The translations under genes were made by a program, and so were the position numbers. A stretch of 64,000 nt of DNA. Source: Shigella phage SHSML-45. The notes beneath the pieces were generated by a model. It was not told where the DNA came from and searched no databases. It worked only from the letters and a program-made list of their open reading frames with translations. The first letter of the stretch is position 1, and each line of letters starts with the position of its first letter. The DNA lies in the sequence record KX130863. The stretch is one strand, 5' to 3'. Positions 11,821 to 37,055 of this stretch are shown here, one piece after another.

Positions 11821-11896
11821 TGGTAGTTAGTAGTGGATTTGAACCACTGTAGTCGCTCCGTATGAAGGAGGTGCATAACCACTCTGCCAACTAACT
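11821..11896 (-). tRNA. tRNA, anticodon CAT (Met, fMet or Ile2)
   Basis: Hand fold: acceptor AGTTAGT/ACTAACT, anticodon loop TTCATAC, T-arm GGTTCAAATCC, encoded CCA. Confidence 0.6.
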
Positions 11897-11992
11897 ATTA
11901 TGTTTTACTAGGCTAAGTAAGTATTCTTTATACTCTTTAGACCAACTAGCTTTTTTAAACTTTCCTGGACGCATAGCCTTAATTCCTAGATT

Positions 11993-12069
11993 TGGTACTC
12001 CGGGAGGGATTTAAACCCCCGATCTCTCGGTTATCAGCCGAGTGCTTTAGATCGCTAAGCTACCGAAGC
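11993..12069 (-). tRNA. tRNA-Ile (GAT)
   Basis: Acceptor GCTTCGG, anticodon arm CTCGG-CTGATAA-CCGAG, encoded CCA. Confidence 0.7.
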
Positions 12070-12084
12070 ATTAAAATATTTACA

Positions 12085-12375
12085 TCACACACTGTCTAAG
12101 TAAGAAGTATAGTGGAATTTAGTTTCTCCAGTATTATCTACTTCTACCTCAGTTCGTGGTACTTGACGAACCACACCATGAATCATCTTATATCGGATGC
12201 CTCTAGCTGGTTCATGATCTTTTGGAAATACTTGTTTAACCGTCACTACTTTATATTCTTCACGCGGTGTTAGCACTACTACTTGATCACCCTCTTTGAT
12301 TTTCCAAGAAGATGGAAATTCATAGGTGTATCTTTGACCACCGGTAAGGAATATAACAGAAAGATAACGTTTCAT
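12085..12375 (-). CDS. hypothetical protein (96 aa)
   Basis: ORF between tRNA genes with its own promoter-like motif upstream. Confidence 0.4.
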   Translation of the reverse strand: MKRYLSVIFLTGGQRYTYEFPSSWKIKEGDQVVVLTPREEYKVVTVKQVFPKDHEPARGIRYKMIHGVVRQVPRTEVEVDNTGETKFHYTSYLDSV

Positions 12376-12452
12376 TTGGTTTCCCTCTCATTAATTTATA
12401 TAAATATTATAGCAATAAATAAGAGAGAAAGCAAATGAGTTTTTCTTGAAAT

Positions 12453-12527
12453 TGGTAGCGGGTTCCAGTACTGCCCTGGACTTACTTAGCTTATGAGACT
12501 AAGAAGAACTCTATGCCTCCCACCCGC
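12453..12527 (-). tRNA. tRNA-like, anticodon CAT, non-canonical T-loop
   Basis: Anticodon arm TTAGT-CTCATAA-GCTAA folds, but the T-loop (GGCAGTA) and acceptor pairing are imperfect. Confidence 0.35.
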
Positions 12528-12535
12528 AATTGTTT

Positions 12536-12660
12536 GGTCATTCTAGGCAGGACTCGAACCTGCTATCACTTGTGCGGACTTACGAGAACCATTCTTTCAC
12601 TCGAATCGAACGAGCTTCTGCCCTCGCCAAGTTGGTTTCCCCATCAACCACGCTAGAATG
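12536..12660 (-). ncRNA. tRNA-like or structured RNA region (two T-arm-like motifs)
   Basis: GCAGG-TTCGAGT-CCTGC and GCTCG-TTCGATT-CGAGT T-arm-like hairpins in an ORF-free stretch; I could not fold a complete cloverleaf by hand. Confidence 0.3.
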
Positions 12661-12781
12661 TTAGATTGTTTTCAGTGCAAGAGTCCGAGTCTTGGACACG
12701 ACCGCTTCGCAAGTACATAGGCAGCTTATCATGAGTCAGCACTTCCGAATTGCTAGCTCCGTGTTCTGCACTGAAATTCTG

Positions 12782-13129
12782 TTAGTTTAATCGTAAAGTA
12801 TTATCTACTTCACCATTAATTGTTCGGCATTCCTCTGGGATTGCCGGGGTGGCCTTGTATTCCCACCACTCAGCACCATCATATTCCCCACGTTCTAGCC
12901 AAGTTCCATCGGCAAACCATACATTACCATAAAGTAATTGTCCACCGTATCCAGAATCATATTCAAAGTCTAGGTTATTAAGAAAATCCTCAATGTATTC
13001 TTCTGTATAACCTAAAGGTAATACCCAAACTTTTTTATCCCCATAATACCCGAATTCTATTTTAATACACTTAACTTTAGAATTGGTATTTTTTAAGGCG
13101 AGTAACAGCTCTTCTTTAGCATTACGCAT
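12782..13129 (-). CDS. hypothetical protein (115 aa)
   Basis: ORF, W/Y-rich. Confidence 0.4.
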   Translation of the reverse strand: MRNAKEELLLALKNTNSKVKCIKIEFGYYGDKKVWVLPLGYTEEYIEDFLNNLDFEYDSGYGGQLLYGNVWFADGTWLERGEYDGAEWWEYKATPAIPEECRTINGEVDNTLRLN

Positions 13130-13153
13130 AGTATATTCTCATACTGAATTATT

Positions 13154-13231
13154 TTGGCGCGACCGATGGGATTTGAACCCACATTCCCTCCCGTGACAGG
13201 GGAGTACCATTACCAAGCCAGCCCCGGTCGC
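13154..13231 (-). tRNA. tRNA-Asp (GTC)
   Basis: Acceptor GCGACCG, anticodon arm CTCCC-CTGTCAC-GGGAG, T-arm GGTTCAAATCC, encoded CCA. Confidence 0.7.
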
Positions 13232-13240
13232 ATAATTTAT

Positions 13241-13426
13241 TTACTCAGCTTTGAGTTTTTCAATAGCTGCATTAAGTTCTTTAAGAAACTCTTTTCGTAC
13301 ATTAAGACGATTGAGACTTACTAGTATATCATGTTTAAGTTCTTCGATGTATTTCTTCTCAACTTCAATATTGTTGATAGTGCTATCACGATGAACTTCT
13401 AGCTGCGCAATCACATTCTTGGACAT
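13241..13426 (-). CDS. small coiled-coil protein (61 aa)
   Basis: ORF. Confidence 0.3.
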   Translation of the reverse strand: MSKNVIAQLEVHRDSTINNIEVEKKYIEELKHDILVSLNRLNVRKEFLKELNAAIEKLKAE

Positions 13427-13453
13427 GCTTGTTTCCTCAGTTATTAATGAAAA

Positions 13454-13526
13454 TGGTATCTGTGGCTGAATTCGATGTCAGCAATGATAGCTGGTTGGCT
13501 ACCGGTTTACTTAACTCTACACAGAA
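13454..13526 (-). tRNA. tRNA-like (anticodon unresolved)
   Basis: Canonical 3' half (GCTGA-CATCGAA-TCAGC T-arm, acceptor, CCA) but the anticodon arm folds with a 6-nt loop. Confidence 0.35.
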
Positions 13527-13528
13527 TT

Positions 13529-13611
13529 TGGCGGGCCGTGTAGGATTCGAACCTACGTTGTCTTTCGACACGGATTAACAATCCGCCGCCAAACCGCTTG
13601 GCTAACGACCC
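13529..13611 (-). tRNA. tRNA with anticodon GTT (Asn) and an extended variable arm
   Basis: Acceptor GGGTCGT/ACGGCCC, anticodon arm GCGGA-TTGTTAA-TCCGT, 13-nt variable region, T-arm GTAGG-TTCGAAT-CCTAC, CCA. Confidence 0.5.
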
Positions 13612-13763
13612 TAAATTTATATTGCTGACTAGGATTTTCACCTAGACGGAGTTAGCACCGTAGCGTGTAGCGGCATACCTCTCCAAACCGTGCCTCATCT
13701 TTCAATTACGGAGACAGTGTTCCTACGCGTGCCTGAATTGATTTAACAATTCTTTCAGCAAAT

Positions 13764-13839
13764 TGGACGACCGCATGAGATTTGAACTCACATAAAAAGG
13801 ATTTGCAATCCTTCGCCTAAGCCATTCAGCCAACGGTCG
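13764..13839 (-). tRNA. tRNA-Cys (GCA)
   Basis: Anticodon arm AAGGA-TTGCAAA-TCCTT, T-arm GGTTCAAATC, CCA. Confidence 0.7.
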
Positions 13840-14017
13840 ATCTATCTTGTTTTTCGAGATCTTCAAATTCTAGATCATTGAAGTTCCCTAGAGTACGGGT
13901 GTAGAACCTATCTCCTGAGTCATAGCCTGATTTACCACAATCATACATTTTAAATTCACGAAGAGGTGTGAAAATGTGTTCAGAACCACAACACTTAAAT
14001 CTAACTAATCGTTTCAT
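13826..14017 (-). CDS. small protein (63 aa)
   Basis: ORF; its 3' end overlaps the tRNA-Cys call, so one of the two is misplaced. Confidence 0.25.
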   Translation of the reverse strand: MKRLVRFKCCGSEHIFTPLREFKMYDCGKSGYDSGDRFYTRTLGNFNDLEFEDLEKQDRSTVG

Positions 14018-14066
14018 TAGCTTCTCCAGTTCAATTTATGTAATTATTATATAGAACTTTTGGAAA

Positions 14067-14345
14067 CTAAGCGACTACATTTTTTAAGAATTTGATGCCT
14101 TTCTTTTTCTTCTTATATTTCCACGTTAATGGATTTTGTCGATTATGAGCGCTTGAGATCTTTGTCTCGTCAAAGTTCTTCAATATCATGTAATCACAGG
14201 ATAATTGTTCTAGTGGAATGTGATCACCGTCAAAAGCGTATACATAAGGCTGTTGACTAGCACGATAATGATAGACTTTGTTAATTCTACGTTTCAGCGA
14301 CTTATCCGCGCAGTAAATAAAGAAGTTTTCAGGATGCATCAGCAT
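14067..14345 (-). CDS. hypothetical protein (92 aa)
   Basis: ORF. Confidence 0.4.
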   Translation of the reverse strand: MLMHPENFFIYCADKSLKRRINKVYHYRASQQPYVYAFDGDHIPLEQLSCDYMILKNFDETKISSAHNRQNPLTWKYKKKKKGIKFLKNVVA

Positions 14346-14356
14346 CTACTTCAATT

Positions 14357-14440
14357 TGGTGCATCGTGATGGATTTGAACCACCAACCCCGAAGGGCACG
14401 GATTTACAGACCGCTGCAATAGACATTCTGCCAACGATGC
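14357..14440 (-). tRNA. tRNA-Tyr (GTA), class II
   Basis: Anticodon loop CTGTAAA identical to E. coli tRNA-Tyr, long variable arm GCCCTTCGGGG, T-arm GGTGG-TTCAAAT-CCATC, CCA. Confidence 0.65.
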
Positions 14441-14568
14441 ACATTTAAAAGTATTCAAATACTAGTTTAAACACTTTTAAATATGTTTCCAAATTAGATA
14501 ACTATTATACCAAGTTTTAAGGCACTGAGCAAGTCAAATTTCGAAGAACTTGCTCAGTGCTGTATTAG

Positions 14569-14844
14569 TTAGTCGAACTTAGGAGTGACAGTTAAGGAGA
14601 ACGGAAGTTCAAAAACTTCTTCCCCCTCATTACTAACTGTAACTACACGACCTTTAAGTTCAGACATTAAAATATCAATATCAGCTTTTGCATCTGGAGC
14701 CATGCCAGCTTCAACACATTTAGCTTTAACTTCCGGAAGGAGTTCTACATCGTAGAAATAAAGCCATTCAATCTCACCTTCCCAGCCTTCCCAGGATTTA
14801 CAGATTGCACTTTCAATACCAGTTGCTATAACACGATTTTGCAT
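14569..14844 (-). CDS. hypothetical protein (91 aa)
   Basis: ORF. Confidence 0.4.
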   Translation of the reverse strand: MQNRVIATGIESAICKSWEGWEGEIEWLYFYDVELLPEVKAKCVEAGMAPDAKADIDILMSELKGRVVTVSNEGEEVFELPFSLTVTPKFD

Positions 14845-14934
14845 TCGTTAACTCCTTCATCAATTTATATAACTATTATATCAGAAATTTAAAGTAAAAG
14901 GCAAGTACATTTTTAAAAATTCTATTCGGAGGAG

Positions 14935-15141
14935 CTAAACTCCAGATTCTTCGGCCAAGTCTAGACTAATAAGAGTTATAGCCATAATTGCCGCACCATG
15001 TTCTTTTTCCCCGGTGTTTTTAGCAGAGTCTATAATATCCTTAATCTGTTCGTAATAACTTTTTACTTCTTGTTCAATACCTGCCTCGGCTATCATGCCT
15101 TTAGTCATGATTCGTTGCATAGTAATTTCACGGTTAGCCAT
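14935..15141 (-). CDS. hypothetical protein (68 aa)
   Basis: ORF; a possible unlisted 39-codon ORF (15133-15249) overlaps its start in an ATGGCTAA arrangement. Confidence 0.35.
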   Translation of the reverse strand: MANREITMQRIMTKGMIAEAGIEQEVKSYYEQIKDIIDSAKNTGEKEHGAAIMAITLISLDLAEESGV

Positions 15142-15316
15142 GATGTTTCTCCAGCTTCATTTTTAATAGTTTACAAATGAAGTCAACGTCTTCATCTGTG
15201 CCTAGATCTCTATCTTCAAGAGTTGCCTTGAAGTTTTTCGTTAGTTCCATAAGAACTACTTCTCTAGAACGACGTGTTGGCGGGGGTGGATGTCTATACA
15301 TCTTATTTCCTTAATT

Positions 15317-15391
15317 TGGTGGGTCGGAGGAGAATCTAACTCCTACTCGTTAGCTTATGAGGCCACCGCTTTAACTTTAAGCTACCGACCC
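15317..15391 (-). tRNA. tRNA, anticodon CAT (Met-type)
   Basis: Acceptor GGGTCGG/CCGACCC, anticodon loop CTCATAA, encoded CCA; T-loop is non-canonical (TTAGATT). Confidence 0.5.
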
Positions 15392-15397
15392 TATGTT

Positions 15398-15486
15398 TGG
15401 CGGAAGAAGGGGGAATCGAACCCACAAGGCTATATTTCAAACCGACAGATTAGCAATCTGCTGCAATACCGTTATGCTATTCTTCC
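15398..15486 (-). tRNA. tRNA-Ser (GCT), class II
   Basis: Acceptor GGAAGAA, anticodon arm GCAGA-TTGCTAA-TCTGT, long variable arm, T-arm TGGG-TTCGATT-CCCC, CCA. Confidence 0.7.
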
Positions 15487-15507
15487 GAATTTATAAGATA
15501 TATTATA

Positions 15508-16026
15508 TTAGAAATTTAGCTTCATGGCAAGAAAATTTTTCAAGTTTTCGGTAGACATCTCATCCACATCTATAGGAGAAACAAACCCATTTAATTGTCT
15601 AGCAAACTTTTCGCCAGCAGGATCATTATCCCCAACAGCTACCAATTTAAAAGGTAGTAATTTCAATTGCTTTAATAGCGGTTTTCCTGGAGAAGAACCC
15701 AACATTGCTAGAGCAGGATACCCAGCATTATGTAATGCTACAGCCTTAAATACAGATTCAGCAATTAATACTACTTTTTCATCCCCATTGAGAGTTTCTA
15801 GTCCCCATACACACTGTGTAGTAGAATAAGTAAAATATCTAGCTTCAAAGGGGCACTTACCATGACCTTTTGGAGCAGAAGGATTATAAGTCTGATAGCC
15901 TCTCAACATTCCAGAGAAGTCATACAATGGGACTGTTAGCCATCCTTCTGGGCTTAACCAGCAGTGATATTTATCTGTATCAAACCCTCTAGATAAGAGA
16001 TGTTCTGTTAGTTCATCAATAGTCAT
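15508..16026 (-). CDS. hypothetical protein with Toprim-like DxD segment
   Basis: KLVAVGDNDPAGEKFA resembles a Toprim acidic motif; start moved to the Met with GAGAGGAA SD (MTIDELTEHL). Confidence 0.4.
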   Translation of the reverse strand: MTIDELTEHLLSRGFDTDKYHCWLSPEGWLTVPLYDFSGMLRGYQTYNPSAPKGHGKCPFEARYFTYSTTQCVWGLETLNGDEKVVLIAESVFKAVALHNAGYPALAMLGSSPGKPLLKQLKLLPFKLVAVGDNDPAGEKFARQLNGFVSPIDVDEMSTENLKNFLAMKLNF

Positions 16027-16246
16027 ACTAGATTCCTCTCTCAAATTTATAAATATATTATGCAGAGAATTTAGCATTCAAGCAATTGAATTTTTTAACT
16101 TTTTAGAGGAAAATCACAGGATGCTTAAGGGTAGCAGGTAAGTGGGTAGACCCCAAAATTGTTATCCCCACTTGATTTTCAATGTGATATAGTGTAAAGT
16201 ATTTGTCATAGCTGAGTGACCAAAGAGACACACTTATCCTCTACCT

Positions 16247-16287
16247 TAAAACAGAAAAGCCCTGCGCTCTCCAGGGAACACAGGGCT
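16247..16287 (-). terminator. rho-independent terminator
   Basis: gccctg...cagggc stem followed on the minus transcript by UUUUCUGUUUU. Confidence 0.45.
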
Positions 16288-16311
16288 TACTTCGAATATT
16301 ACGTGTGGGAA

Positions 16312-17259
16312 TTACTTGTTACGCATATCCATAATCATCTGGCCATCGTAACCAGTGCCAACTACTGTTTGAGGTACACCGCCTTGATATTTCTGAGCAC
16401 GAATCATTTCAACTTCTAGTTGTTTCCAGCGAATCATCTCAGGAGTAATAGTACGTTGCAGAGCGGCGTTAGCTTCGGCTTCCTTCTTAGCTGCGTACAG
16501 TTTAGCATCTGCATCACGTTCGTTTGCAATAGCTTGGTTGTTACGAGCTTCACGATCTGCTTCTGCTTGTTTAACCTTCTGCTGTGCTTCTTGTTCAACA
16601 CGAGCCAACTCAGCTTTCGCAGCATTAACTTGTTCCTCACGAACTTTGGTATTCTGTACCTGTTCCACGATTACAGGCGGCAAAGTAATATCCTGAAGGA
16701 ACACTTGCTTAACTGTGTAACCATAAGGGCGTGCATACTCTTCAACTTCCTGTTGAATTGCGGTTTGTAATTGAGCCTGGATTTTAGCATCAAACAAATC
16801 TTGTGCTTTAGGAACAGACTTACCGAACTCACGAATAGTGGACAGTAATTTTTCAGTTACATATTTGTCTAATGCTTGATCCTGGGTACCTGCGTTAATA
16901 CGGTTAATCGGTGCCTTAGAACCATCAAACTGCAACATAACAGTCAGGTCAACAGTGGATTTAAACTTATCCTGACTAGGAACCTGAAGTTTATCTAATT
17001 TTACAGCAATGTCTTTTGTACTAAAAGTATCGAAAGATGCAAATGGGTTTACAAGATGAAAACCAGGTAATACAGGATTAGGGTCTACTTTACCCAGAAA
17101 TGTTTGGGTTTTAACCGTACCATCAGAAACAATAGTATATGAATTAAAAGCTAGGATTAAACCTGCTAAACCAACTACAGCACCAATACCCCAACGTTTA
17201 ATAGTGCGAATTACTTTTTGCTCAGAAGTCAGTTCTTTCATATTTTTAGTATTAAACAT
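16312..17259 (-). CDS. SPFH/band-7 (prohibitin/HflC-like) membrane protein
   Basis: N-terminal TM (GIGAVVGLAGLILAF), SPFH-like core, then an Ala/Glu/Gln-rich coiled coil (EQVNAAKAELARVEQEAQQKVKQAEADREARNNQAIA) as in HflK/HflC. Confidence 0.65.
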   Translation of the reverse strand: MFNTKNMKELTSEQKVIRTIKRWGIGAVVGLAGLILAFNSYTIVSDGTVKTQTFLGKVDPNPVLPGFHLVNPFASFDTFSTKDIAVKLDKLQVPSQDKFKSTVDLTVMLQFDGSKAPINRINAGTQDQALDKYVTEKLLSTIREFGKSVPKAQDLFDAKIQAQLQTAIQQEVEEYARPYGYTVKQVFLQDITLPPVIVEQVQNTKVREEQVNAAKAELARVEQEAQQKVKQAEADREARNNQAIANERDADAKLYAAKKEAEANAALQRTITPEMIRWKQLEVEMIRAQKYQGGVPQTVVGTGYDGQMIMDMRNK

Positions 17260-17270
17260 ATATTTCCTTA

Positions 17271-17471
17271 TTATTTAGAAGAGTTAGCTACTACAGTTAC
17301 TTTAGTTGCAGAAATAAACAGGCTAGCATCCACAGCAAATTCAGGAGCTTTGATATCTCCATTATGAAATATGACTATACCGGAGACTACTTCAAATGCT
17401 AGTGCTGTAACATCGGTGGTATTTACTTGTGAATGTTCACCTACTACTTTTACTATATATCGTGTTTTCAC
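17271..17471 (-). CDS. small protein (66 aa)
   Basis: ORF directly upstream of the SPFH gene. Confidence 0.35.
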   Translation of the reverse strand: MKTRYIVKVVGEHSQVNTTDVTALAFEVVSGIVIFHNGDIKAPEFAVDASLFISATKVTVVANSSK

Positions 17472-17497
17472 TTTATTTTCCTAGCAGTTAATAAAAT

Positions 17498-17572
17498 TGG
17501 CCGAGGTGACAGGATTCGAACCTGCATAAAGGAATTTAGAAGACTCCTGCCTCTCCCTTAGACTACACCCCG
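17498..17572 (-). tRNA. tRNA-Arg (TCT)
   Basis: Acceptor CGGGGTG/CACCTCG, anticodon arm GGAGT-CTTCTAA-ATTCC, T-arm GGTTCGAATCC, CCA. Confidence 0.7.
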
Positions 17573-18074
17573 TTTAAGTATTTTTAAGAACTCTCGTAAA
17601 AACTCTTAAAAATACAGACGATACCGGGAGAGTCATAAGTCTCACTCATTAAGTATTTCAAGACAAAATACAGTAACGTCTATTATTTTCCAGTTTAAGT
17701 CAAGGTGACTTAGTGGTTATGTCCTGCGGTATACTGAGGACTCGGTTAGGTTAGGGTCATGACTCCCCACCTTTTGCTGCTACTCAACAGGAGTTATCGC
17801 GAATTACCTGTGCTATTGTGCACCATTAGTGACATCTCTCATGTCAGCATTTCCCACTTTGTGGATAGCTTGAAAAACTACTCCGATATGGAGAAAGAAC
17901 TTCACTATCCTAGAATACCTTCTAAAGTTCTTCTTTAGCCTGGACATAGTTAAATCGTAATAAAACTATTCAGCAGACTGGTTGGTTAGTCTGGAACCAA
18001 CTACCGCGTGGTTTAGGCAGTGCGCAACTAACCTCGGAAGCTTTTACGTTAAAAGCACCAGTTATCCAGTTCTT

Positions 18075-18146
18075 ACCGACCGTAGGATTCGAACCTACAT
18101 CTTCCACCAGTTACGGCTTGATAATACCGTTTATACTAGATCGGCA
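18075..18146 (-). tRNA. tRNA-like (anticodon unresolved; CCA not encoded)
   Basis: Perfect T-arm GTAGG-TTCGAAT-CCTAC and acceptor GCCGATC/GGTCGGT (two G-U pairs); anticodon arm did not fold by hand. Confidence 0.4.
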
Positions 18147-18258: not shown

Positions 18259-18693
18259 TTAGAAAAACTCGCTAGCAATCAAGGCGGCTGTTTTACCATC
18301 ATAACGCCCCGGAAACTCTGCCTTAATAGTTTTCATTAGGAGAGCTTTGGTAATACCTGGGTTTAGCTTAACCAATTCTGCAAAATATTTACGAATTTCA
18401 GTTTCAGTTAGCTGTTGTAGTGCATAATCATGCTCTAAACGCGCTAAAAGATCTAAGTATTCAGCATCAGGAGTATAGTCAACATTCGATTTTTCAGCGG
18501 CAATCCGTGTATTCTCAATTGCTTTGAGTTGTGATTTCAACCAGTTAGTAAACTCCAGCTCAGTTACGCAATCTTTATCAATACGTTGCAGGTCTCCTAG
18601 AACCGTACTTAGATGCTTAACTGATACAGCGTCACCACTTTTGCGAGCAGCTTCAATCAACTCTCGCAGTACATAAAGCATGTTCATGCCCAT
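18259..18693 (-). CDS. hypothetical protein (144 aa)
   Basis: ORF. Confidence 0.4.
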   Translation of the reverse strand: MGMNMLYVLRELIEAARKSGDAVSVKHLSTVLGDLQRIDKDCVTELEFTNWLKSQLKAIENTRIAAEKSNVDYTPDAEYLDLLARLEHDYALQQLTETEIRKYFAELVKLNPGITKALLMKTIKAEFPGRYDGKTAALIASEFF

Positions 18694-30618: not shown

Positions 30619-30900
30619 TTGGCAAATAAAATTTCTGATAGAAAAGGCCCGAGTATTTTCATACCCAGGCCTCCTGTGTTGTCAGTCTAGTTTTTGGCCA
30701 CTTAAGTTCTCAGCAGAATATCTATTGAGGTACTTAGTTCATTATAATTGAAGGGCCGATTTGGATTTGAGGTTACAATTTTCCACGCTAGGGTAGTCTT
30801 AGGACTTTCTTCCCCTTCCTTACGTGTAATCATATTAGCAGCACTCAGTGAAGTACGATGTATTTTAGTTTTACGGTGTAGATGTACGACGTTTCCCATA

Positions 30901-31662
30901 TTACACCTTCCCCATGTCTTTAAAAATATCGTAGAATGCTTTAGACTCAGCAGAACGAACGTTATCAATCAATTCGATCATAGAGAAAGGAGAGTTTTCA
31001 TACTTCTCATAGACTTCCATAAGAAGTGCTAGACCTGAGTCACCTTTAATGTCTTTCTGAGCTATATCCCCGCAGATAATTAAACGGCAGTCTTGTCCTA
31101 CACGAGTTAGGAGACAAACCATTGCCTCAACGGAAATATTCTGAGCTTCATCGACAATTACATAGGAGTTGTTGAAAGTTCTGCCACGAGCATGTTCTAT
31201 AGCCAAAAATTTAATTTTCTGACGTTCGACATATCCCTTATAGGCATGATCACCGATGGCCCATTTCATACCATCAGCTATTGGCTCTAACCAAGGCTCT
31301 AGCTTTTCTGCTAGATCACCAGGAAGCATACCAAGAGACTTACCTAGAGGTTCATTAGGACGTACGAGGATCACTTGCTCAATATCTGAGTGAATGTCTA
31401 CGAGTTCCTGAGCTGCAAGAACAGACGGGATAAAGGTTTTACCAGTACCCGGCTCACCGATACCCACAGTCACTGTGTTGTTCTTGATCATATTAATATA
31501 TGATTTTTGCTCTCGGTTTTTACCTACTAGGGATTTAGCAACTGGGTTAGCGTAATCATTAGAAAAATCAGCCTGAATTACGTTACTCCCATATTTGTTG
31601 CCACGCTTTCTTGAACCATTGCGGTTCTCTCTTTTTTGACGTGCTTTTCCCATAAATAACAC
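30901..31662 (-). CDS. phoH: PhoH-like ATPase
   Basis: Walker A GIGEPGTGKTF and Walker B region LIICGDIAQKD. Confidence 0.8.
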   Translation of the reverse strand: MLFMGKARQKRENRNGSRKRGNKYGSNVIQADFSNDYANPVAKSLVGKNREQKSYINMIKNNTVTVGIGEPGTGKTFIPSVLAAQELVDIHSDIEQVILVRPNEPLGKSLGMLPGDLAEKLEPWLEPIADGMKWAIGDHAYKGYVERQKIKFLAIEHARGRTFNNSYVIVDEAQNISVEAMVCLLTRVGQDCRLIICGDIAQKDIKGDSGLALLMEVYEKYENSPFSMIELIDNVRSAESKAFYDIFKDMGKV

Positions 31663-31867
31663 TCCTATAGTGTACTTCGCTTCTAACAGAGGATCAACAA
31701 AGAGATCTTGTTTATCAACTTACAAATATATTATAACAAGGTTTACAGCAAAAAGCAAGTATAATTTTAAATAAACCTATGATATTGCTTTTAAGTAAAA
31801 AATTTACTTGCTTATAAAGGTAGAAATATGATACTAGATAATCATTTATTTATATGCGAAATATTAC

Positions 31868-31896
31868 AGTATTAGATGGCGAAAGAAAATTTTAAT
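31868..31896 (+). promoter_or_regulatory. sigma70 consensus promoter (TTGACA-17-TATAAT)
   Basis: ttgaca 31868-31873, 17-bp spacer, tataat 31891-31896; first plus-strand promoter after the strand switch. Confidence 0.6.
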
Positions 31897-31952
31897 TGAC
31901 ATAGTGGATAATGTTTAGTATAATAGGTGTAAAAATTCTGTGGAGAAGTGGA

Positions 31953-32816
31953 ATGCCGAAAAAATTAACTCAAGAAGAAGTAGATAAATGCCTAGCCGAG
32001 CGTGGTTTTACTATGGTGGATAAGCCATATCAAAATTCTAGGTATAGGCATACGTATCAGTGTGAATACGGTCACCAATGGACAGCTAAATTTGACGCTA
32101 TTAGGAATGGAAAGACCAATTGTCCTACTTGCTCTATTAGTAGCCGTAAACTAGATATTGATAAAATTAATACTATATTACAGGACAGAGGTATTACATT
32201 GTTGAACGGCTATAAAAATAGTGCCGATATAAATACTAAATTTAGGTGTGTTTGTGGTCATGAGTGGGCTACTACACTTAATAGTATAATTAATAGAGGT
32301 AGTGGCTGCCCATCTTGTGCTGCTAATAAACAGAAACTTAGTGTTAATACTATAAATGATCGTCTTGCTGCCAGAAATATCAGAATAGTGGGTGAGTATA
32401 GTAATGCGAATACTAAGACCGCCTTTCTTTGTGGTGCAGGGCATAGGTGGGAAGCTACTCCAGGGTCTGTATTAAGGGGGAACGGTTGTCCTTACTGTAG
32501 TTATAGAGATTTAGAAAGTACTAGGATATATGTTATGTATAGCCCCTCACATGGGGTTAAAATAGGTAGGTCTAACAATCCAGAGCGTAGACTTCTACAT
32601 ATTAGATCTAGTAGCCACCTTATTGATTTGGAAATAATTAAAGTATTTGAAATTGGGGAATATAGTAGTGCAGTTCGAATAGAAAAATTAGCCCATAACT
32701 ACTTTAAAGAGCAGAATTGCCAGTACAAAGATTTTGACGGCGCTACGGAATTCTTCAATATTGAACCAAAAGTAGCTATAAAGTTTATCGAGGAAATAAT
32801 CAATGACAGAGAATGA
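31953..32816 (+). CDS. Zn-ribbon repeat protein with GIY-YIG-like (T5orf172-type) domain
   Basis: Four CxxC...CPxC repeats then YVMYSPSHGVKIGRS; start moved to MPKK (GGAG SD) because the ORF-track start overlaps the promoter. Confidence 0.5.
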   Translation: MPKKLTQEEVDKCLAERGFTMVDKPYQNSRYRHTYQCEYGHQWTAKFDAIRNGKTNCPTCSISSRKLDIDKINTILQDRGITLLNGYKNSADINTKFRCVCGHEWATTLNSIINRGSGCPSCAANKQKLSVNTINDRLAARNIRIVGEYSNANTKTAFLCGAGHRWEATPGSVLRGNGCPYCSYRDLESTRIYVMYSPSHGVKIGRSNNPERRLLHIRSSSHLIDLEIIKVFEIGEYSSAVRIEKLAHNYFKEQNCQYKDFDGATEFFNIEPKVAIKFIEEIINDRE

Positions 32817-34629
32817 ATTAATTGAGAATTGCAAAGGTCTGCTCACTCTAACTGCGGATAAGGACTTACAGCATAATAATGCTAATAAGCCTAGTGAGAT
32901 GTTCCATACTCAAAGAGACTTATTGGCCGGAGAAATCAACAAATATTTAGTATCGCAGGAATTACCCAAACATCTATTAGACGCCCATAATCTAGGTAAG
33001 ATACACATTCATGATATGGATTACAGGGCGCAGGGGTACACTAACTGTTGCTTAGTAGACCTTGGTGGCATGCTGAAGAATGGTACTAAAATTGGTAATG
33101 CAAATATTGAAACTCCTAAATCCATAACTACTGCATGTGCAATCACTGCTCAGATTATTGCCCAAGTATCTGGTGCTCAGTATGGTGGCACCTCTATTGA
33201 TCGTATCGACGAGGTTCTAGCCCCGTATGTCAGAAAGTCTTACAATAAACATCTGGGTCGTGGGCTACGTTGGCTCAAGGATGAAAGAAAAGCTGCTGTG
33301 TATGCTACTGAGCTTACTGAAAAAGAGTGTTATGATGCATTCCAAGCTCTAGAGTATGAAACTAATTCATTATTTAACTCTAATGGGCAGACCCCTTTTG
33401 TTACGCATGGCTTTGGATTAGGTCAGGAGTGGGAGGAAAGGATGATTCAGAAAGCCATCCTCCAAAATCGTATTAAAGGTTTAGGTGCTGCTGAGTCAAC
33501 CCCTATCTTCCCTAAACTAGTATTCTCAGTTAAAGAAGGGTTAAATAAAAATCCAGGCGATCCTAACTACGATATAAAACAGCTAGCACTTGAGTGTTCT
33601 GCTACCCGTATGTACCCAGACTATTTAAGCTATGAGAAAGTTGTAGCTGTTACTGGTGATTTTAAAGCCCCTATGGGTTGTCGTAGCTTTTTATCTGCTA
33701 TCCCCTCCGGAGAAATTGCAGGGCGCAATAATTTAGGTGTAGTGTCTATTAATCTACCTATGGTTGCTGCTGAGGCAGATGGGGTTTTTGAAGATTTCTG
33801 GGATATTCTGGACAAATATGTGGATGAGGCTTTTGAAGCTCATGATTTTTTCTTGGATAGACTTAAGAAAGTGAAGGCTAAACAAGCCCCTATTCTTTAT
33901 ATGCACGGTGGTTTTGGTGTGCGTTTAGATGGGGAAGAGTATGTATGGCCTATTTTTGAGGGTAGATCTTCTGTATCTCTTGGATACATTGGGGTCTATG
34001 AGATGTGCCAAATAATGTTTAGTCTACCACAAACCCATAGGGATTGTATTGAATTTACAGAAGAAGTTCTTACTCACCTAAAAAATCGTTGCGAAGTTAA
34101 AGCTAATGAGACTAATCTTGGATTTAGCTTATACGCTACCCCTAGTGAGTCTCTATGTAATCGTTTTAATAAATTACTAGAACGTAGATTCCCAGAGTAT
34201 TCTTGGTTAACAGACAAAGGCTATCTTACTAATAGTCACCATTTGGACGTAAGAGAGAAGGTAGCCCCAGATACTAAATTTGAGTACGAAGCTCATTTTA
34301 CCAAAATAGCTAATGGTGGTAATATATCGTTTGTGGAATTACCACAAATGAAAAAATTCCATAAAGCTCTTGAATACGTAGTAGATAAGGGACTAGAGTG
34401 TAGCCATTATATCGGTGTTAATATACCGATTGACGAGTGTTTCAACTGTGGATATATGGGTGAATCTATTGCCTCTGAGCGTGGGTTTGTATGTCCAAGT
34501 TGTGGGTCTGAAGAAATAGAGGTTACACGTAGGGTTTGCGGGTACCTGGGATCCCCGGGCAGTAGGCCTTTCAATTCTGGGAAACAAAAAGAAGTGCTTG
34601 GTAGAGTAAAACACTTAAATCTTAAGTAA
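32803..34629 (+). CDS. nrdD: anaerobic ribonucleoside-triphosphate reductase (class III NrdD)
   Basis: 608 aa; C-terminal zinc ribbon CFNCGYMGE...CPSCGS and glycyl-radical motif TRRVCGYLGS. Confidence 0.85.
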   Translation: MTENELIENCKGLLTLTADKDLQHNNANKPSEMFHTQRDLLAGEINKYLVSQELPKHLLDAHNLGKIHIHDMDYRAQGYTNCCLVDLGGMLKNGTKIGNANIETPKSITTACAITAQIIAQVSGAQYGGTSIDRIDEVLAPYVRKSYNKHLGRGLRWLKDERKAAVYATELTEKECYDAFQALEYETNSLFNSNGQTPFVTHGFGLGQEWEERMIQKAILQNRIKGLGAAESTPIFPKLVFSVKEGLNKNPGDPNYDIKQLALECSATRMYPDYLSYEKVVAVTGDFKAPMGCRSFLSAIPSGEIAGRNNLGVVSINLPMVAAEADGVFEDFWDILDKYVDEAFEAHDFFLDRLKKVKAKQAPILYMHGGFGVRLDGEEYVWPIFEGRSSVSLGYIGVYEMCQIMFSLPQTHRDCIEFTEEVLTHLKNRCEVKANETNLGFSLYATPSESLCNRFNKLLERRFPEYSWLTDKGYLTNSHHLDVREKVAPDTKFEYEAHFTKIANGGNISFVELPQMKKFHKALEYVVDKGLECSHYIGVNIPIDECFNCGYMGESIASERGFVCPSCGSEEIEVTRRVCGYLGSPGSRPFNSGKQKEVLGRVKHLNLK

Positions 34630-34636
34630 GCTAATC

Positions 34637-34670
34637 AGCCAGGTTGCTAGTCGACCTGGCTTTTATTTTA
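34637..34670 (+). terminator. rho-independent terminator
   Basis: Stem agccaggt/acctggct followed by TTTTATTTTATTT. Confidence 0.55.
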
Positions 34671-34671
34671 T

Positions 34672-34700
34672 TTGCTTTCAGCTAAAAATATATGTATAAT
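34672..34700 (+). promoter_or_regulatory. early promoter (TTGCTT-17-TATAAT)
   Basis: ttgctt 34672-34677, tataat 34695-34700, then conserved ATAAATTTGAGAGGAG leader and ATG at 34729. Confidence 0.55.
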
Positions 34701-34728
34701 AGATTTATAAATTTGAGAGGAGAAAGCT

Positions 34729-35010
34729 ATGAGAGAGTTGCTTCCTAAAGTAGATGTCTCCCATCTTGGAGAGCCTAGTGAAGAACGTAAGGCTCTAGAT
34801 TGGTTGGGTGGATTTGATTATCGTCGTGTTGTTGCAACATGGAATGATAAGAAAGTTAAGAAGTTTCGGGTACATTATGTAGGTAAAGACAAGTGGCTCT
34901 GGATTGATTATGAAGAATCGAAGGGGTCTACTAAGGCTGTGAAAATTTATTGTATGTATGGGTATTATTATGCTCACTGTGACAAGAATGAATTTACAGT
35001 ACAGAACTAA
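34729..35010 (+). CDS. hypothetical protein (93 aa)
   Basis: ORF with promoter and SD. Confidence 0.45.
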   Translation: MRELLPKVDVSHLGEPSEERKALDWLGGFDYRRVVATWNDKKVKKFRVHYVGKDKWLWIDYEESKGSTKAVKIYCMYGYYYAHCDKNEFTVQN

Positions 35011-35019
35011 GGAACAAGA

Positions 35020-35223
35020 ATGAAAAACGTAAAACACCTTAAATATCGCTTAATTTACAACGGACGTATGGAAACAGAAGACCTAGCTCAATTAGCTATT
35101 AATTCTAATGAGGTCACGGTACGTGCGTTAGCTATTGAAAAGTTGCGGGCTTCTTATGAAAGTCGTATTATGGAACTAGAGGAGAAACTTTATGGCATTC
35201 TCGAAGCCGATGCTACCAGATAA
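35020..35223 (+). CDS. hypothetical protein (67 aa)
   Basis: ORF. Confidence 0.35.
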   Translation: MKNVKHLKYRLIYNGRMETEDLAQLAINSNEVTVRALAIEKLRASYESRIMELEEKLYGILEADATR

Positions 35224-35581
35224 GGGTTTAAACGCCGCTTTGGAAAACGCATTAATGCAGCACTGGTTCTCTGTCAGGAATGAGATGGAGAACGTTCAGA
35301 TTATGACCGGATTAGATCTTATCGATCGTTTTCTTGGTACAACGGATTTTACTGGTGGTGGGCTATCTAGGGGTAATTCTGTTCTTCGCTTCGTTGAAAA
35401 GCATAAGCTCAAACATTGGTGTGTGCTGGATGATGCTGGTGCTATGATGTATCAGTACCCAACGGTTATAGTCAACGGTAGAACTGGAATAAATCTTCAA
35501 GATTTAAGAGCTGTTAGCTATATGCTAGAATTTAGCCCAGATCTTGAAATGTGTAAATCCTTACAACAATTTAAGGTGTAA
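35192..35581 (+). CDS. hypothetical protein (129 aa)
   Basis: ORF. Confidence 0.4.
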   Translation: MAFSKPMLPDKGLNAALENALMQHWFSVRNEMENVQIMTGLDLIDRFLGTTDFTGGGLSRGNSVLRFVEKHKLKHWCVLDDAGAMMYQYPTVIVNGRTGINLQDLRAVSYMLEFSPDLEMCKSLQQFKV

Positions 35582-35583
35582 AT

Positions 35584-36012
35584 ATGTTCAATAATGTATT
35601 CTCTAAAGAAGCTAACCCAATTTTGGTTAACTTTTGGCGTACTCTCCCGGCTAGCCTGTATAATGAGGCTATTAATGCTCTGAAAATATGGTGTGAAAAT
35701 AATGAAATCTCCTTTGCTTTTAAAGATGATATTGATGAGGCCCCCTGTATTGGTTTAGTTGTGCAGGTAGAGGATGGTCTTGAAGAGATTGTGGGCTGGA
35801 AAGAGTTGGATGAAATGGGGTTGGTTTTTGCATTAAACTATAAGCTATTTATGCCCAATAAACACCGTATTGTTGTTAATTATAAAACCAGTGAATCTCC
35901 TGGTTTTCAAGTTAATGAACACTACGGTTGGTCTTACTCACCGGAAGAAGTAAATGATGGTATCCAAAAACTTCGTCGTTTTGGTTATCAAATTCCCGGT
36001 TTAACTGCCTAA
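35584..36012 (+). CDS. hypothetical protein, paralog A of a tandem pair
   Basis: Shares ...ELD(W/E)xELxxMGL(I/V)xALN(Y/F)xLF...P(D/E)...(F/I)(Y/Q)IPGL with 36022..36414. Confidence 0.45.
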   Translation: MFNNVFSKEANPILVNFWRTLPASLYNEAINALKIWCENNEISFAFKDDIDEAPCIGLVVQVEDGLEEIVGWKELDEMGLVFALNYKLFMPNKHRIVVNYKTSESPGFQVNEHYGWSYSPEEVNDGIQKLRRFGYQIPGLTA

Positions 36013-36021
36013 GGGGACACA

Positions 36022-36414
36022 ATGGAACAAGTATATTGGCGTCAGATTGATCCTAGTTTGGTGAATCGTGCGGAGAAGCTGCTACAACGTTGGTTGGGGG
36101 TAAGACAAGCCTCCTTCACTTTTCCAGAGCAGCAAATAGATGATCCCTGTGTTGATGTTTTCCTATCAGGCTACGCTAGGGAATGGGAATTGGATTGGAA
36201 TGAGTTGTCTGCTATGGGTTTAATTGTTGCCCTAAATTTCTCTTTGTTCCATCCACGTGGTTTGGCCATATGTCGTGTGCCTGATGACGGTTGTTCGCCC
36301 CATCTTTTACAGGTGGAAGATGATATTTGGGAGTACACTCCAGATATTCTCAAAGAAGCCAAAGAACAATTAAACCGTGTTGGAATTTATATTCCAGGCC
36401 TGAATGATGAATGA
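36022..36414 (+). CDS. hypothetical protein, paralog B of a tandem pair
   Basis: See paralog A; same length class (130 vs 142 aa). Confidence 0.45.
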   Translation: MEQVYWRQIDPSLVNRAEKLLQRWLGVRQASFTFPEQQIDDPCVDVFLSGYAREWELDWNELSAMGLIVALNFSLFHPRGLAICRVPDDGCSPHLLQVEDDIWEYTPDILKEAKEQLNRVGIYIPGLNDE

Positions 36415-36553
36415 TTTTTATTAGCTGAAATTTGTAATCCGGGCTATTAGTGCTCGGATTATTACATAATCTTTCCAGTCGATTGACAGTCAAAATAAAA
36501 TGTCGTTGACAATTTGGATGGATTATGTAATAATATATGTATTGGAGGTGAGG

Positions 36554-37006: not shown

Positions 37007-37015
37007 AATTTCATT

Positions 37016-37044
37016 TGCAAGGGAGTATTATTTTATAGTATAAT
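37016..37044 (+). promoter_or_regulatory. promoter copy 1 (TTGCAA-17-TATAAT) of a tandem pair
   Basis: ttgcaa 37016-37021, tataat 37039-37044, followed by 39-bp repeat copy 1. Confidence 0.5.
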
Positions 37045-37055
37045 ATTCCCATAAA

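What the first reader, a model, noticed from the sequence alone, without database searches (positions are those of the whole stretch)
12430..12780. ORF-free 350-bp block with tRNA-like hairpins that do not fold into canonical cloverleaves
The block contains a CAT-anticodon tRNA-like gene with an aberrant T-loop (12453-12527), two further T-arm-like motifs (GGTTCGAGTCC near 12551, TTCGATT near 12605), and a 9-bp inverted repeat (cagtgcaag/ctgcactg) bracketing 12668-12772. These could be unusual tRNAs, tRNA fragments or small regulatory RNAs.
Basis: seen in the sequence. Interest (0 to 1): 0.6.

Follow-up and report, generated by a model that had tools for sequence, protein, structure and literature searches.

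The report
Three tRNA-derived RNA genes in phage
The "empty" 350-bp block is the minus-strand continuation of a T5-like phage's tRNA cluster and holds three tRNA-derived RNA genes that standard tRNA finders miss: an unannotated conserved RNA, the homologue of the T5 stable RNA "RNA2", and a methionine-type tRNA with a rebuilt elbow.

Summary
The window is Salmonella phage Shivani, a T5-like phage.

- **Element A (12775-12671).** This 105-nt RNA has a perfect 10-bp terminal stem. No record annotates it as an RNA. It is nearly invariant in T5-like phages although the adjacent ORF varies.
- **Element B (12660-12535).** This is the homologue (97.6% identity) of the T5 misc_RNA "rna2". I show it belongs to a covariation-supported family found in T5-like, Klebsiella and Acinetobacter T4-size phages. 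The family is a tRNA scaffold whose anticodon loop is replaced by a conserved 48-55-nt domain containing a second T-loop hairpin. In Shivani a 280-bp deletion joins its 3' end to the ACCA tail of a lost tRNA-Pro.
- **Element C (12528-12453).** This is a real cloverleaf with a CAU anticodon, sitting in the slot of T5 tRNA-fMet. Its acceptor and D stems look like an initiator tRNA, but the D and T loops are co-changed (GGCAGUA).

None of the three matches Rfam. Expression and function are untested. My best guess is that C is a working Met tRNA and that A and B are non-decoding tRNA mimics.

The parts
12671..12775 (-). Element A: 105-nt structured RNA candidate, not annotated as an RNA in any record. 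It has a 10-bp terminal stem (12775-12766 with 12680-12671) and a 4-bp hairpin GUCC-AAGACUC-GGAC (12697-12683). The interior fold is unresolved; one possible hairpin is anticodon-like, GCUGA-CUCAUGA-UAAGC (12740-12724).
   Evidence: Perfect inverted repeat. The MFE fold keeps the terminal stem and the hairpin. There are 0-3 variable columns per 20 in 27 distinct T5-like loci, against 11-20 in the adjacent ORF. Found in 218 phage records, all at least 93.9% identical, with 'none' or a spurious 'hypothetical protein' annotated. 100% identical to the unannotated gap between T5p065 and rna2 in T5.
12535..12660 (-). Element B: homologue of the T5 stable RNA 'rna2' (RNA2). Parts, 5' to 3': 8-bp acceptor stem (12660-12653 with 12546-12539); D arm (12650-12633); helix P3 in the place of the anticodon stem (12632-12628 with 12572-12568); inserted domain; T arm; and a 3' ACCA (12538-12535).
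   Evidence: 97.6% identical to T5 rna2. T5 annotation as misc_RNA. CM R1 scores 105.5 bits at 12547-12633. Family covariation.
12576..12623 (-). Conserved 48-nt domain of B that replaces the anticodon loop. It consists of P4 GGGC/GUCC, P5, a T-loop hairpin (12615-12599, loop UUCGAUU), the strand GAAAGAAUGGUUC, and a UAA bulge.
   Evidence: Structural alignment of 15-16 divergent family members. The Rfam tRNA model aligns relative L093 as a tRNA with 55 nt in place of the loop.
12547..12563 (-). Canonical T arm of B: GCAGG UUCGAGU CCUGC.
   Evidence: The outermost pair is G-C in Shivani, G-U in ESCO40 and A-U in MM-1.
12537..12540 (.). Deletion junction (TGAC microhomology). Relative to phage ESCO40, 280 bp are missing: rnaIV, the P13a-type promoter and the body of tRNA-Pro.
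   Evidence: Alignments and exact end points.
12453..12528 (-). Element C: 76-nt cloverleaf tRNA with anticodon CAU (12495-12493), a U1.U72 mismatch, acceptor xGCGGG, A11:U24, D loop CAUAGAGU (12515-12508, no GG), T arm UCCAG-GGCAGUA-CUGGA (12480-12464), and an encoded ACCA end.
   Evidence: Lies in the slot of T5 tRNA-fMet. Family cloverleaf 92.1% paired, covariation score 0.617 against 0.202 in shuffles. ARAGORN calls it only in mitochondrial mode or at 80% thresholds.
12406..12434 (-). Promoter-like site (TTGCTT, 17 nt, TATAAT with TGC upstream) for the downstream ORF 12375-12085. It marks the 3' limit of the RNA block.
   Evidence: Read from the sequence. T5 annotates a putative promoter at the homologous place upstream of T5p056. 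The consensus scan did not list it, because the -35 hexamer matches only 3 of 6.

Best explanation
The block is part of the early tRNA transcription unit of a T5-like phage, read on the minus strand. It encodes three tRNA-derived RNAs placed head to tail.

**Element C** is a methionine-type, initiator-like tRNA. Its four stems, CAU anticodon, A73 and CCA end are intact. Its D loop and T loop have changed together, so the usual G18G19/U55C56 elbow contacts are replaced. It most likely still accepts methionine and substitutes for the canonical T5 tRNA-fMet that occupies the same slot in relatives.

**Element B** is the homologue of T5 RNA2. It has a tRNA scaffold (acceptor stem, D arm, T arm) in which the 7-nt anticodon loop is replaced by a conserved folded domain of about 50 nt carrying a second T-loop hairpin. 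It therefore cannot decode. It most likely acts as a tRNA mimic that is cut out by tRNA-processing enzymes and binds some partner that recognises tRNA shape.

**Element A** is a third stable structured RNA linked to B.

Shown here: the strand, boundaries, homology, conserved secondary structures, the deletion junction, and the failure of standard predictors. Inferred: transcription and processing, charging of C, and the mimic or decoy role of A and B.
For: **Identity and strand.**
- The window is phage Shivani (100% and 99.7% identity).
- All ten called tRNAs lie on the minus strand.

**Element B.**
- It is 97.6% identical to the misc_RNA 'rna2: RNA2' annotated in T5 records.
- The phage DT57C record calls the related rna2H a 'stable RNA with unknown functions'.
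- Homologues occur in 482 phage records and in viral and metagenome contigs, including Klebsiella phages and Acinetobacter T4-size phages.
- For the proposed structure, 88.8% of cells are paired and the covariation score is 0.505, against 0.152 in shuffles (0 of 500 reach it) and at most 0.145 for slid controls.
- P3 shows 4-5 different pair types per position.
- The covariance model separates members (65-105 bits) from ordinary tRNAs (24 bits or less).
- The Rfam tRNA model aligns relative L093 as a tRNA with 55 nt in place of the anticodon loop.

**Element C.**
- The same gene occupies the slot between tRNA-Pro and tRNA-Lys in other T5-like phages.
- Relatives occur in Stephanstirmvirinae, in Lahexavirus and in two further viral contigs.
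- The cloverleaf is 92.1% paired with covariation 0.617 against 0.202.
- The one substitution seen within T5-like phages turns G10.U25 into A10-U25.
- The T loops fall into two co-varying types, UGCRAUA and GGCRGUA. Phage TS3 has the same D stem with canonical loops.

**Element A.**
- It is as conserved as B while the neighbouring ORF is not.
- It is always directly upstream of B, including in phage TrudiGerster, where the upstream ORF is absent.
Against: - I had no transcript data for Shivani or for A and C in any phage.
- A has almost no sequence variation, so its fold has no covariation support. My cloverleaf-like drawing of A (-19 to -23 kcal/mol) is worse than its MFE fold (-31.7).
- Single-sequence folding z-scores are unremarkable, -1.3 to -1.6.
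- The T5 region carrying A and rna2 lies inside the viable T5Mos deletion 30661-38625 (PMC11464382; coordinates), so both are dispensable in laboratory hosts.
- The tRNA region recombines and deletes freely, so some content may be neutral.
- C lacks the three G:C pairs in the anticodon stem that are typical of bacterial initiators, and no charging data exist.
- No partner or target of A or B is known.
Confidence: 0.75

Rival explanations
1. The three elements are functionless relics: decaying tRNA pseudogenes and recombination scars in a hyper-recombinogenic, dispensable tRNA region.
For: Shivani has a 280-bp deletion joining B to the tail of tRNA-Pro. Gene content downstream of rna2 differs between almost every lineage. 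Large deletions of this region are viable in T5 (PMC11464382). Relatives L098 and L100 of C have imperfect acceptor stems.
Against: A and B are far more conserved than the adjacent protein gene. B keeps its helices through many compensatory changes across unrelated phage families. C keeps its helices in the same way across several phage lineages. The loop sequences of B's inserted domain are invariant from T5-like phages to Acinetobacter phages.
Confidence: 0.12
2. B is a precursor tRNA with a small intervening sequence in its anticodon loop. ARAGORN's intron mode reads it as tRNA-Arg(CCG) with a 48-nt intron. On this view the insert is removed to give a decoding tRNA.
For: ARAGORN with -i at 90% thresholds calls 12659-12539 as an intron-containing tRNA-Arg. 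The Rfam tRNA model accepts L093 with a 55-nt insertion. P3 sits exactly where an anticodon stem would. The junction looks superficially like loop, 4-bp helix, 3-nt bulge.
Against: - The residual loops (GCGAGCA, GCUAGCA, AUAGCA, GCAGAUA and others) lack U33 and a purine at 37, and they vary in length.
- The alternative residual loop, GUCCGCA, has C37, and its 'anticodon' is one strand of the conserved P4 helix.
- The versions in Acinetobacter-type phages lack an acceptor stem altogether.
- The insert is the most conserved part of the molecule, the opposite of what is expected for an intron.
- No small-intron splicing system is known in these hosts (from my own knowledge).
Confidence: 0.04
3. 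A, and possibly B, are cis-acting elements of the polycistronic transcript: processing or insulator signals, or 3'-end stabilisers for the upstream ORF. On this view they do not act in trans.
For: A starts 6 nt after the stop codon of ORF 12782-13129 and has a long terminal stem. In Epseptimavirus the same position upstream of rna2 holds unrelated stem-closed elements of 70-80 nt.
Against: A stays with rna2, not with the ORF, in TrudiGerster. No U tract or terminator-like site was found. Near-invariance over 105 nt is more than a simple stabilising hairpin needs.
Confidence: 0.12
4. The block encodes small proteins, as some GenBank records suggest with 'hypothetical protein' features over A and B.
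For: Annotators placed CDS features here in several phages.
Against: No minus-strand ORF of 30 aa or more exists, and the plus-strand ORFs are antisense to the transcription unit. Substitutions follow base pairing, not codons.
Confidence: 0.01

Closest known systems
Bacteriophage T5 stable RNA 'RNA2' (misc_RNA rna2; AY692264 32962-33086, AY543070/NC_005859 32960-33084)
   Same: Element B is the same gene: 97.6% identity, the same 125-nt limits, and the same neighbours (A upstream).
   Different: In Shivani the 3' flank is deleted, so B abuts C and gains an encoded ACCA end (T5 has ACAC). None of the papers the searches turned up discusses a function or structure for T5 RNA2, and Rfam has no matching family.
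Bacteriophage T4 species 1 and species 2 RNAs (rnaC, rnaD)
   Same: They are small stable RNAs of unknown function encoded at the end of a phage tRNA cluster. rnaC has a canonical T arm near its 3' end and shares the string GGUUGAGAUA with some rna2 relatives.
   Different: They are not homologous by the family model: rnaC scores 18.6 bits through its T arm only. Their length and architecture differ.
tmRNA and other tRNA mimics with a replaced anticodon arm (for example YrlA/Y-like RNAs)
   Same: They share a tRNA-like acceptor and T-arm module joined to a non-decoding domain.
   Different: B has no tag reading frame, no pseudoknots and is only 125 nt. ARAGORN finds no tmRNA in the window or in the block at 80% thresholds, and Rfam has no match. 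In YrlA the RNA ends lie on the opposite side of the tRNA-like module (from my own knowledge).
Bacterial initiator tRNA(fMet), and the T5-encoded tRNA-fMet
   Same: C occupies the T5 tRNA-fMet slot. It shares the CAU anticodon and CUCAUAA loop, the acceptor xGCGGG with a 1:72 mismatch, A11:U24 and A73.
   Different: The D loop lacks G18G19. The T loop is GGCAGUA instead of UUCGAUU. The anticodon stem has no run of three G:C pairs. C is missed by ARAGORN and by the Rfam tRNA model.
Non-proteinogenic tRNA-Gly of Staphylococcus (cell-wall glycine donors)
   Same: These are functional, chargeable tRNAs that lack G18, G19 and the U55/C56 elbow nucleotides (PMC4574755). They are a precedent for a working tRNA with a rebuilt elbow and a specialised role.
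   Different: They differ in amino acid, organism and loop sequences. I have no evidence that C is used outside translation.

Membership tests
Canonical bacterial tRNA (as defined by ARAGORN and Rfam RF00005) | Detected by ARAGORN at default settings or by RF00005 at its gathering score | tested here: not met
   There is no call for A, B or C. No RF00005 hit appears in 12300-12900 even at E<=10. Relatives of C also stay below the gathering score.
Canonical bacterial tRNA | Four-arm cloverleaf with a 7-bp acceptor stem, 4-bp D stem, 5-bp anticodon stem, 7-nt anticodon loop and 5-bp T stem | tested here: met
   Met for C only: 21 pairs, 92.1% paired across 10 distinct sequences, covariation 0.617 against 0.202. 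ARAGORN's mitochondrial mode calls 12528-12453 as tRNA-Met. Not met for B (no anticodon loop) or for A.
Canonical bacterial tRNA | Conserved elbow nucleotides G18, G19, U54, U55, C56 and A58 | tested here: not met
   In C the D loop is CAUAGAGU and the T loop is GGCAGUA (G54, G55, C56, G58). B does have a GG-containing D loop and a UUCGAGU T loop.
Bacterial initiator tRNA (tRNA-fMet) | CAU anticodon, mismatched or weak 1:72 pair, G2:C71 C3:G70 G4:C69, A11:U24, A73 | tested here: met
   C has U1.U72, G2-C71, C3-G70, G4-C69, A11-U24 and A73 (read). The determinant list itself is from my own knowledge of E. coli tRNA-fMet.
Bacterial initiator tRNA (tRNA-fMet) | Three consecutive G:C pairs at the bottom of the anticodon stem | tested here: not met
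   The anticodon stem of C is UUAGU/GCUAA. The canonical T5 tRNA-fMet also lacks them (CUAGU/GCUAG).
Bacterial initiator tRNA (tRNA-fMet) | Charged by MetRS and formylated by the transformylase | not testable with these tools
   This needs biochemical assays.
T5 RNA2 (rna2) family | Sequence homology to the annotated T5 misc_RNA with the same limits | tested here: met
   B is 97.6% identical over 124-125 nt and starts at the same C of CAUUCUAG.
T5 RNA2 (rna2) family | P3 helix enclosing GRGGY, a T-loop hairpin, GAAAGAAUGGUUC, NCG, UAA, RUCC, followed by a canonical T arm (family model R1) | tested here: met
   R1 scores 105.5 bits at 12547-12633(-). All other members score 65-103 bits and ordinary tRNAs 24 bits or less.
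T5 RNA2 (rna2) family | Accumulates as a discrete stable RNA in infected cells | not testable with these tools
   Only the GenBank annotation of T5 and DT57C ('stable RNA with unknown functions') speaks to this. Nothing is known for Shivani.
tmRNA | tRNA-like domain plus a tag-peptide reading frame and pseudoknots | tested here: not met
   ARAGORN, which also searches for tmRNA, finds none in the window or in the block at 80% thresholds. No Rfam tmRNA hit.
Intron-containing tRNA | Removal of the insert leaves a 7-nt anticodon loop with U33 and a purine at position 37 | tested here: not met
   The residual loops are 6-7 nt, mostly with C in the second position and C or U in the sixth. The insert is the most conserved part. 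The forms without an acceptor stem cannot be tRNAs.
T4 species 1 RNA (rnaC) | Homology to T4 rnaC | tested here: not met
   R1 gives 18.6 bits on T4 rnaC, from the T arm only. No BLAST relation was found.

The most novel reading that the evidence does not exclude
The rna2 family, perhaps together with its linked partner A, is a widespread class of phage-encoded tRNA mimics without an anticodon. Its extra T-loop domain gives it a second 'elbow'. It would work as a decoy or adaptor that captures a host or phage factor recognising tRNA shape. Candidates are a tRNA-targeting defence nuclease, a tRNA-processing or modification enzyme, or a ribosome-associated factor. That would make it an RNA-based counter-defence or takeover device sitting beside the protective tRNAs of T5. 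In the same reading, the rebuilt elbow of C lets an initiator-type tRNA escape a factor that reads the canonical elbow.
Probability: 0.2. Interest if true: 0.8.

Novelty: new variant of a known kind. Interest (0 to 1): 0.5.

Why it matters
Small stable RNAs of unknown function have been annotated next to the tRNA genes of T4 and T5 without explanation. This work turns one of them, T5 RNA2, into a defined family with a covariation-supported architecture, a searchable model and a host range spanning unrelated phage groups. It adds an unannotated, equally conserved neighbour (A). It also shows that a conserved class of CAU tRNAs with a rebuilt elbow is systematically missed by ARAGORN and Rfam, so phage tRNA repertoires are under-counted. 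Phage tRNAs are now known to neutralise tRNA-cleaving immune systems such as PARIS and retron Eco7. Non-decoding tRNA look-alikes in the same clusters are therefore obvious candidates for related roles, and they are directly testable by deletion and complementation.

Tried and rejected
- **Rfam.** I scanned at the gathering score and at E<=10 on the block and on divergent relatives. No family matched A, B or C.
- **Intron reading of B.** Rejected on the residual-loop sequences, on the forms without an acceptor stem, and on the conservation of the insert.
- **Homology of B to T4 rnaC/rnaD or T5 rna1.** A shared GGUUGAGAUA string exists, but model R1 gives only T-arm-level scores.
- **Other T5 misc_RNAs.** rnaI, rnaIII, rna1, rna2H and rnaIV are absent from the window.
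- **Cellular homologues of B.** The genome-contig scan gave 34 pattern matches. Only one is real, and it lies on a 167-kb phage-like contig.
- **RNA-RNA complementarity among A, B and C.** Not better than shuffles. The 10/12 complementarity between the hairpin of A and the T arm of B is about chance level.
- **Cloverleaf model for A.** It is energetically poorer than the MFE fold and has no covariation support, so I left it open.
- **Flanking ORFs.** They match no Pfam family, only PHROGs families of unknown function plus one weak 28-residue excisionase-family hit.
- **A shared neighbouring gene.** A YqeY-like gene lies near B in L041 and 5.5 kb away in Shivani, but not in the fetched stretches of the Acinetobacter-type phages. 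I kept this only as a lead.
- **Literature searches.** None of the returned papers discusses T5 stable RNAs or phage tRNA-like decoys.
- **Wasted scan.** One viral-contig scan was lost to a pattern that was off by one base.

Full report
**Where we are.** The window matches Salmonella phage Shivani (Tequintavirus, T5-like) at 100% over the block and 99.7% over 12 kb. ARAGORN and the Rfam tRNA model each find ten tRNA genes between 11.8 and 18.2 kb, all on the minus strand, and none between 12070 and 13154. The Shivani records annotate nothing between the ORFs at 12085-12375 and 12782-13129. A permissive Rfam scan of 12300-12900 at E<=10 gives only noise and no tRNA-clan hit. On the transcribed strand the longest ORF in the block is 29 aa.

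**The observation.** Read that way, the block resolves into three adjacent units:
- A: 12775-12671
- B: 12660-12535
- C: 12528-12453

A 29-nt promoter-like site follows at 12434-12406, serving the next ORF. The two perfect inverted repeats found by the repeat tool are the terminal stems of A (10 bp) and B (8 bp).

**Element B is T5 RNA2.** The T5 st0 record (AY692264) annotates six misc_RNAs in its tRNA region. One of them, rna2 (125 nt), aligns base for base with B at 97.6% identity. It starts at the same C of CAUUCUAG. AY543070/NC_005859 and the 'Salmonella phage 5' fragment also label it RNA2. The DT57C record describes the related rna2H as a 'stable RNA with unknown functions'.

**B belongs to a broad, structured family.**
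- BLAST finds B-like sequences in 482 phage records, down to 77% identity in Klebsiella and Acinetobacter phages.
- A motif scan of viral, metagenome and genome collections added more members. These include divergent members on Acinetobacter-type T4-size contigs (160-170 kb), a 164-kb contig without neighbouring tRNAs, and environmental contigs.
- The single hit in 'bacterial genomes' lies on a 167-kb phage-like contig. I therefore found no cellular homologue.
- A segment-wise structural alignment gives the following order of parts:
  1. acceptor stem (four unrelated sequences, all paired)
  2. D arm with a GG loop
  3. helix P3
  4. a 3-4-nt joint
  5. P4 (GGGY/RUCC)
  6. P5
  7. a hairpin with a T-loop sequence, UUCRAUU
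  8. the near-invariant strand GAAAGAAUGGUUC
  9. NCG
  10. a UAA bulge
  11. RUCC
  12. GCA or AUA
  13. the P3 return strand
  14. 2-4 nt
  15. a canonical T arm
- On a 15-sequence MAFFT alignment, 88.8% of cells pair and the covariation score is 0.505. Shuffles average 0.152 (0 of 500 reach the observed value) and slid controls reach at most 0.145.
- P3, the internal hairpin and the T arm carry most of the compensatory changes. P4 and P5 each have one covarying pair.
- A covariance model built from this alignment scores members at 65-105 bits and ordinary tRNAs at 24 bits or less. Ordinary tRNAs align through their anticodon stem and T arm, so P3 stands where the anticodon stem stands.
- Independently, the Rfam tRNA model accepts one divergent member (L093) as a full tRNA with 55 nt in place of the loop.
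- The versions in the Acinetobacter-type contigs sit between two tRNAs and have no acceptor stem. The conserved core is therefore the elbow plus the inserted domain, not the aminoacyl end.

**Is B an intron-containing tRNA?** ARAGORN's intron mode at 90% thresholds calls it tRNA-Arg(CCG) with a 48-nt intron. I reject this for three reasons:
- The loops left after removing the insert lack U33 and a purine at position 37, and they vary in length.
- The proposed anticodon is one strand of P4.
- The insert is the most conserved part of the molecule, and some members have no acceptor stem.

**A Shivani-specific rearrangement.** In phage ESCO40 the order is A, rna2, rnaIV, promoter, tRNA-Pro, C. In T5 and MM-1 more genes follow, including tRNA-fMet, an ORF, tRNA-Lys and tRNA-Val. 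Shivani lacks exactly 280 bp relative to ESCO40, with both end points at TGAC (12540-12537). As a result the acceptor stem of B is followed by ACCA, inherited from tRNA-Pro, where T5 has ACAC. Single-piece BLAST hits suggest that a few close relatives share this junction.

**Element C is a real but non-canonical tRNA.**
- C has a 7-bp acceptor stem with a U1.U72 mismatch, a 4-bp D stem, a 5-bp anticodon stem, the loop CUCAUAA, a 5-nt variable loop, a 5-bp T stem, A73 and CCA.
- It lies where T5 and MM-1 carry tRNA-fMet. In phage SB10 it sits precisely between tRNA-Pro and tRNA-Lys.
- Relatives occur in Klebsiella Stephanstirmvirinae phages, in Aeromonas Lahexavirus and in two other viral contigs.
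- Across ten distinct sequences the cloverleaf is 92.1% paired, with covariation 0.617 against 0.202 in shuffles.
- What deviates is the elbow. The D loop is CANAGAGY, with no G18G19. The T loop is UGCRAUA in one group and GGCRGUA in the group that includes Shivani, so positions 54 and 58 change together.
- Aeromonas phage TS3 has the same GG-GAGG D stem with canonical loops, an apparent intermediate.
- ARAGORN calls the UGCRAUA type as tRNA-Met. It misses the GGCRGUA type in all three lineages. Rfam's tRNA model misses both types at its gathering score.
- C is recovered only in ARAGORN's mitochondrial mode or at 80% thresholds.
- The acceptor xGCGGG, the weak 1:72 pair, A11:U24 and A73 resemble initiator tRNA. 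The three G:C pairs of the anticodon stem are absent, as they are in T5 tRNA-fMet.
- Staphylococcus non-proteinogenic tRNA-Gly species, which also lack G18/G19 and U55/C56, show that such tRNAs can be functional (PMC4574755).

**Element A.**
- A is 100% identical to the unannotated 121-nt gap between T5p065 and rna2 in T5.
- It occurs in 218 records, all at least 93.9% identical, and is never annotated as an RNA.
- In 27 distinct loci it shows 0-3 variable columns per 20, like rna2. The neighbouring ORF shows 11-20, and the 10-nt A-B spacer is itself variable.
- A is always directly upstream of rna2. In the Epseptimavirus TrudiGerster it keeps that position although the upstream ORF is missing. 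Its six substitutions there fall in predicted loops, for example CUCAUGA to CGCGCGA.
- Only the terminal stem and the GUCC-AAGACUC-GGAC hairpin are robust in folding. A cloverleaf-like drawing with a CAU-containing anticodon-like hairpin is possible but energetically inferior and unsupported by covariation.
- A resembles the other T5 stable RNAs in size and in having a long terminal stem.

**Mechanism: shown and inferred.**
- Shown: the strand, limits, homology, conserved structures, the deletion, and the blindness of the predictors.
- Inferred from the arrangement, and from what is established for tRNA operons: the three RNAs are transcribed with the flanking tRNAs and ORFs and are released by RNase P and 3' trimming.
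- For C, I commit to a Met-accepting, initiator-type tRNA with an altered elbow.
- For B, I commit to a non-decoding tRNA mimic whose extra T-loop domain forms a second elbow-like module and binds a factor that recognises tRNA shape.
- For A, I commit to a co-inherited stable RNA, or alternatively a cis-acting partner of B.
- Against any essential role: T5Mos lacks 30661-38625, which includes A and rna2, and is viable (PMC11464382).

**Verdict.** B is already annotated in T5, but its structure is uncharacterised. A is unannotated. C belongs to a conserved tRNA class that standard tools miss. I rate this a new variant of a known kind, of moderate interest.

Noticed in passing
window 11821-18146 (all tRNA genes); KP143763/NC_028754 features: The GenBank records of Shivani place the tRNA features on the strand opposite to the one on which ARAGORN and Rfam find them. 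The coordinates are the same but the strand is wrong.
   Followed up: partly
window 12376-12790 compared with L002, L003, L004: Shivani lacks T5's tRNA-Pro, tRNA-fMet (canonical form), tRNA-Lys(UUU) and tRNA-Val. It also lacks the stable RNAs rnaI, rnaIII, rna1, rna2H and rnaIV. T5 tRNA-Lys is the reported antidote to PARIS (PMC11464382), so Shivani may be PARIS-sensitive.
   Followed up: partly
window 18259-18693 (-); L041:3005-3505: A YqeY/GatB-tail-like protein gene lies in the Shivani tRNA region. Another lies about 230 nt upstream of the rna2-like RNA on a 164-kb contig that has no tRNAs nearby. From my own knowledge, YqeY-type domains contact the tRNA elbow in GatB, which makes this a possible partner.
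   Followed up: partly
L005:784-897 and L007:114-224 (Klebsiella phages FBKp34, KP13-16): A 111-114-nt tRNA-Asp(GUC) carries an insertion of about 38 nt between the D arm and the anticodon arm, yet still scores 47.7 bits with the Rfam tRNA model.
   Followed up: no
L139:190-290 (Pseudoalteromonas phage J2-1): The 5' half of a C-type tRNA(CAU) is intact up to the anticodon. It is then replaced by unrelated sequence followed by an endonuclease gene. This may be an intron or a homing-endonuclease insertion.
   Followed up: no
L098:5901-5979: A CyVA-1 RNA (RF02965) matches at 52 bits inside a 20-tRNA array of a viral contig that also carries a C-type tRNA.
   Followed up: no
L097:207-300 (phage TrudiGerster): An extra tRNA-like element of about 90 nt, ending in CCACCA, lies between tRNA-Lys and element A. 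ARAGORN does not call it.
   Followed up: no
L014:808-1038 (Acinetobacter phage W16); L128:7053-7127: In W16 the rna2-like RNA lies directly upstream of a 76-aa gene for an RF-1-domain (ArfB-like) protein. On the 167-kb contig L128 it directly follows a tRNA with the amber-reading anticodon CUA.
   Followed up: no
L004:3505-3648 (T5 rna1); L096:1409-1547 (T4 rnaC): Both stable RNAs contain GGUUGAGAUA, and rna1 continues it directly with AAUGG, as in the inserted domain of some rna2 relatives. The family model does not support homology.
   Followed up: partly
window 12683-12694 and 12548-12559: The hairpin of A is 10/12 complementary to the T arm of B. This is about what chance gives in a region of this size.
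   Followed up: yes
window 18073-18146 (-): ARAGORN calls a tRNA-Ser with the unusual anticodon ACT. It is the weakest Rfam tRNA hit in the window, at 36.8 bits.
   Followed up: no
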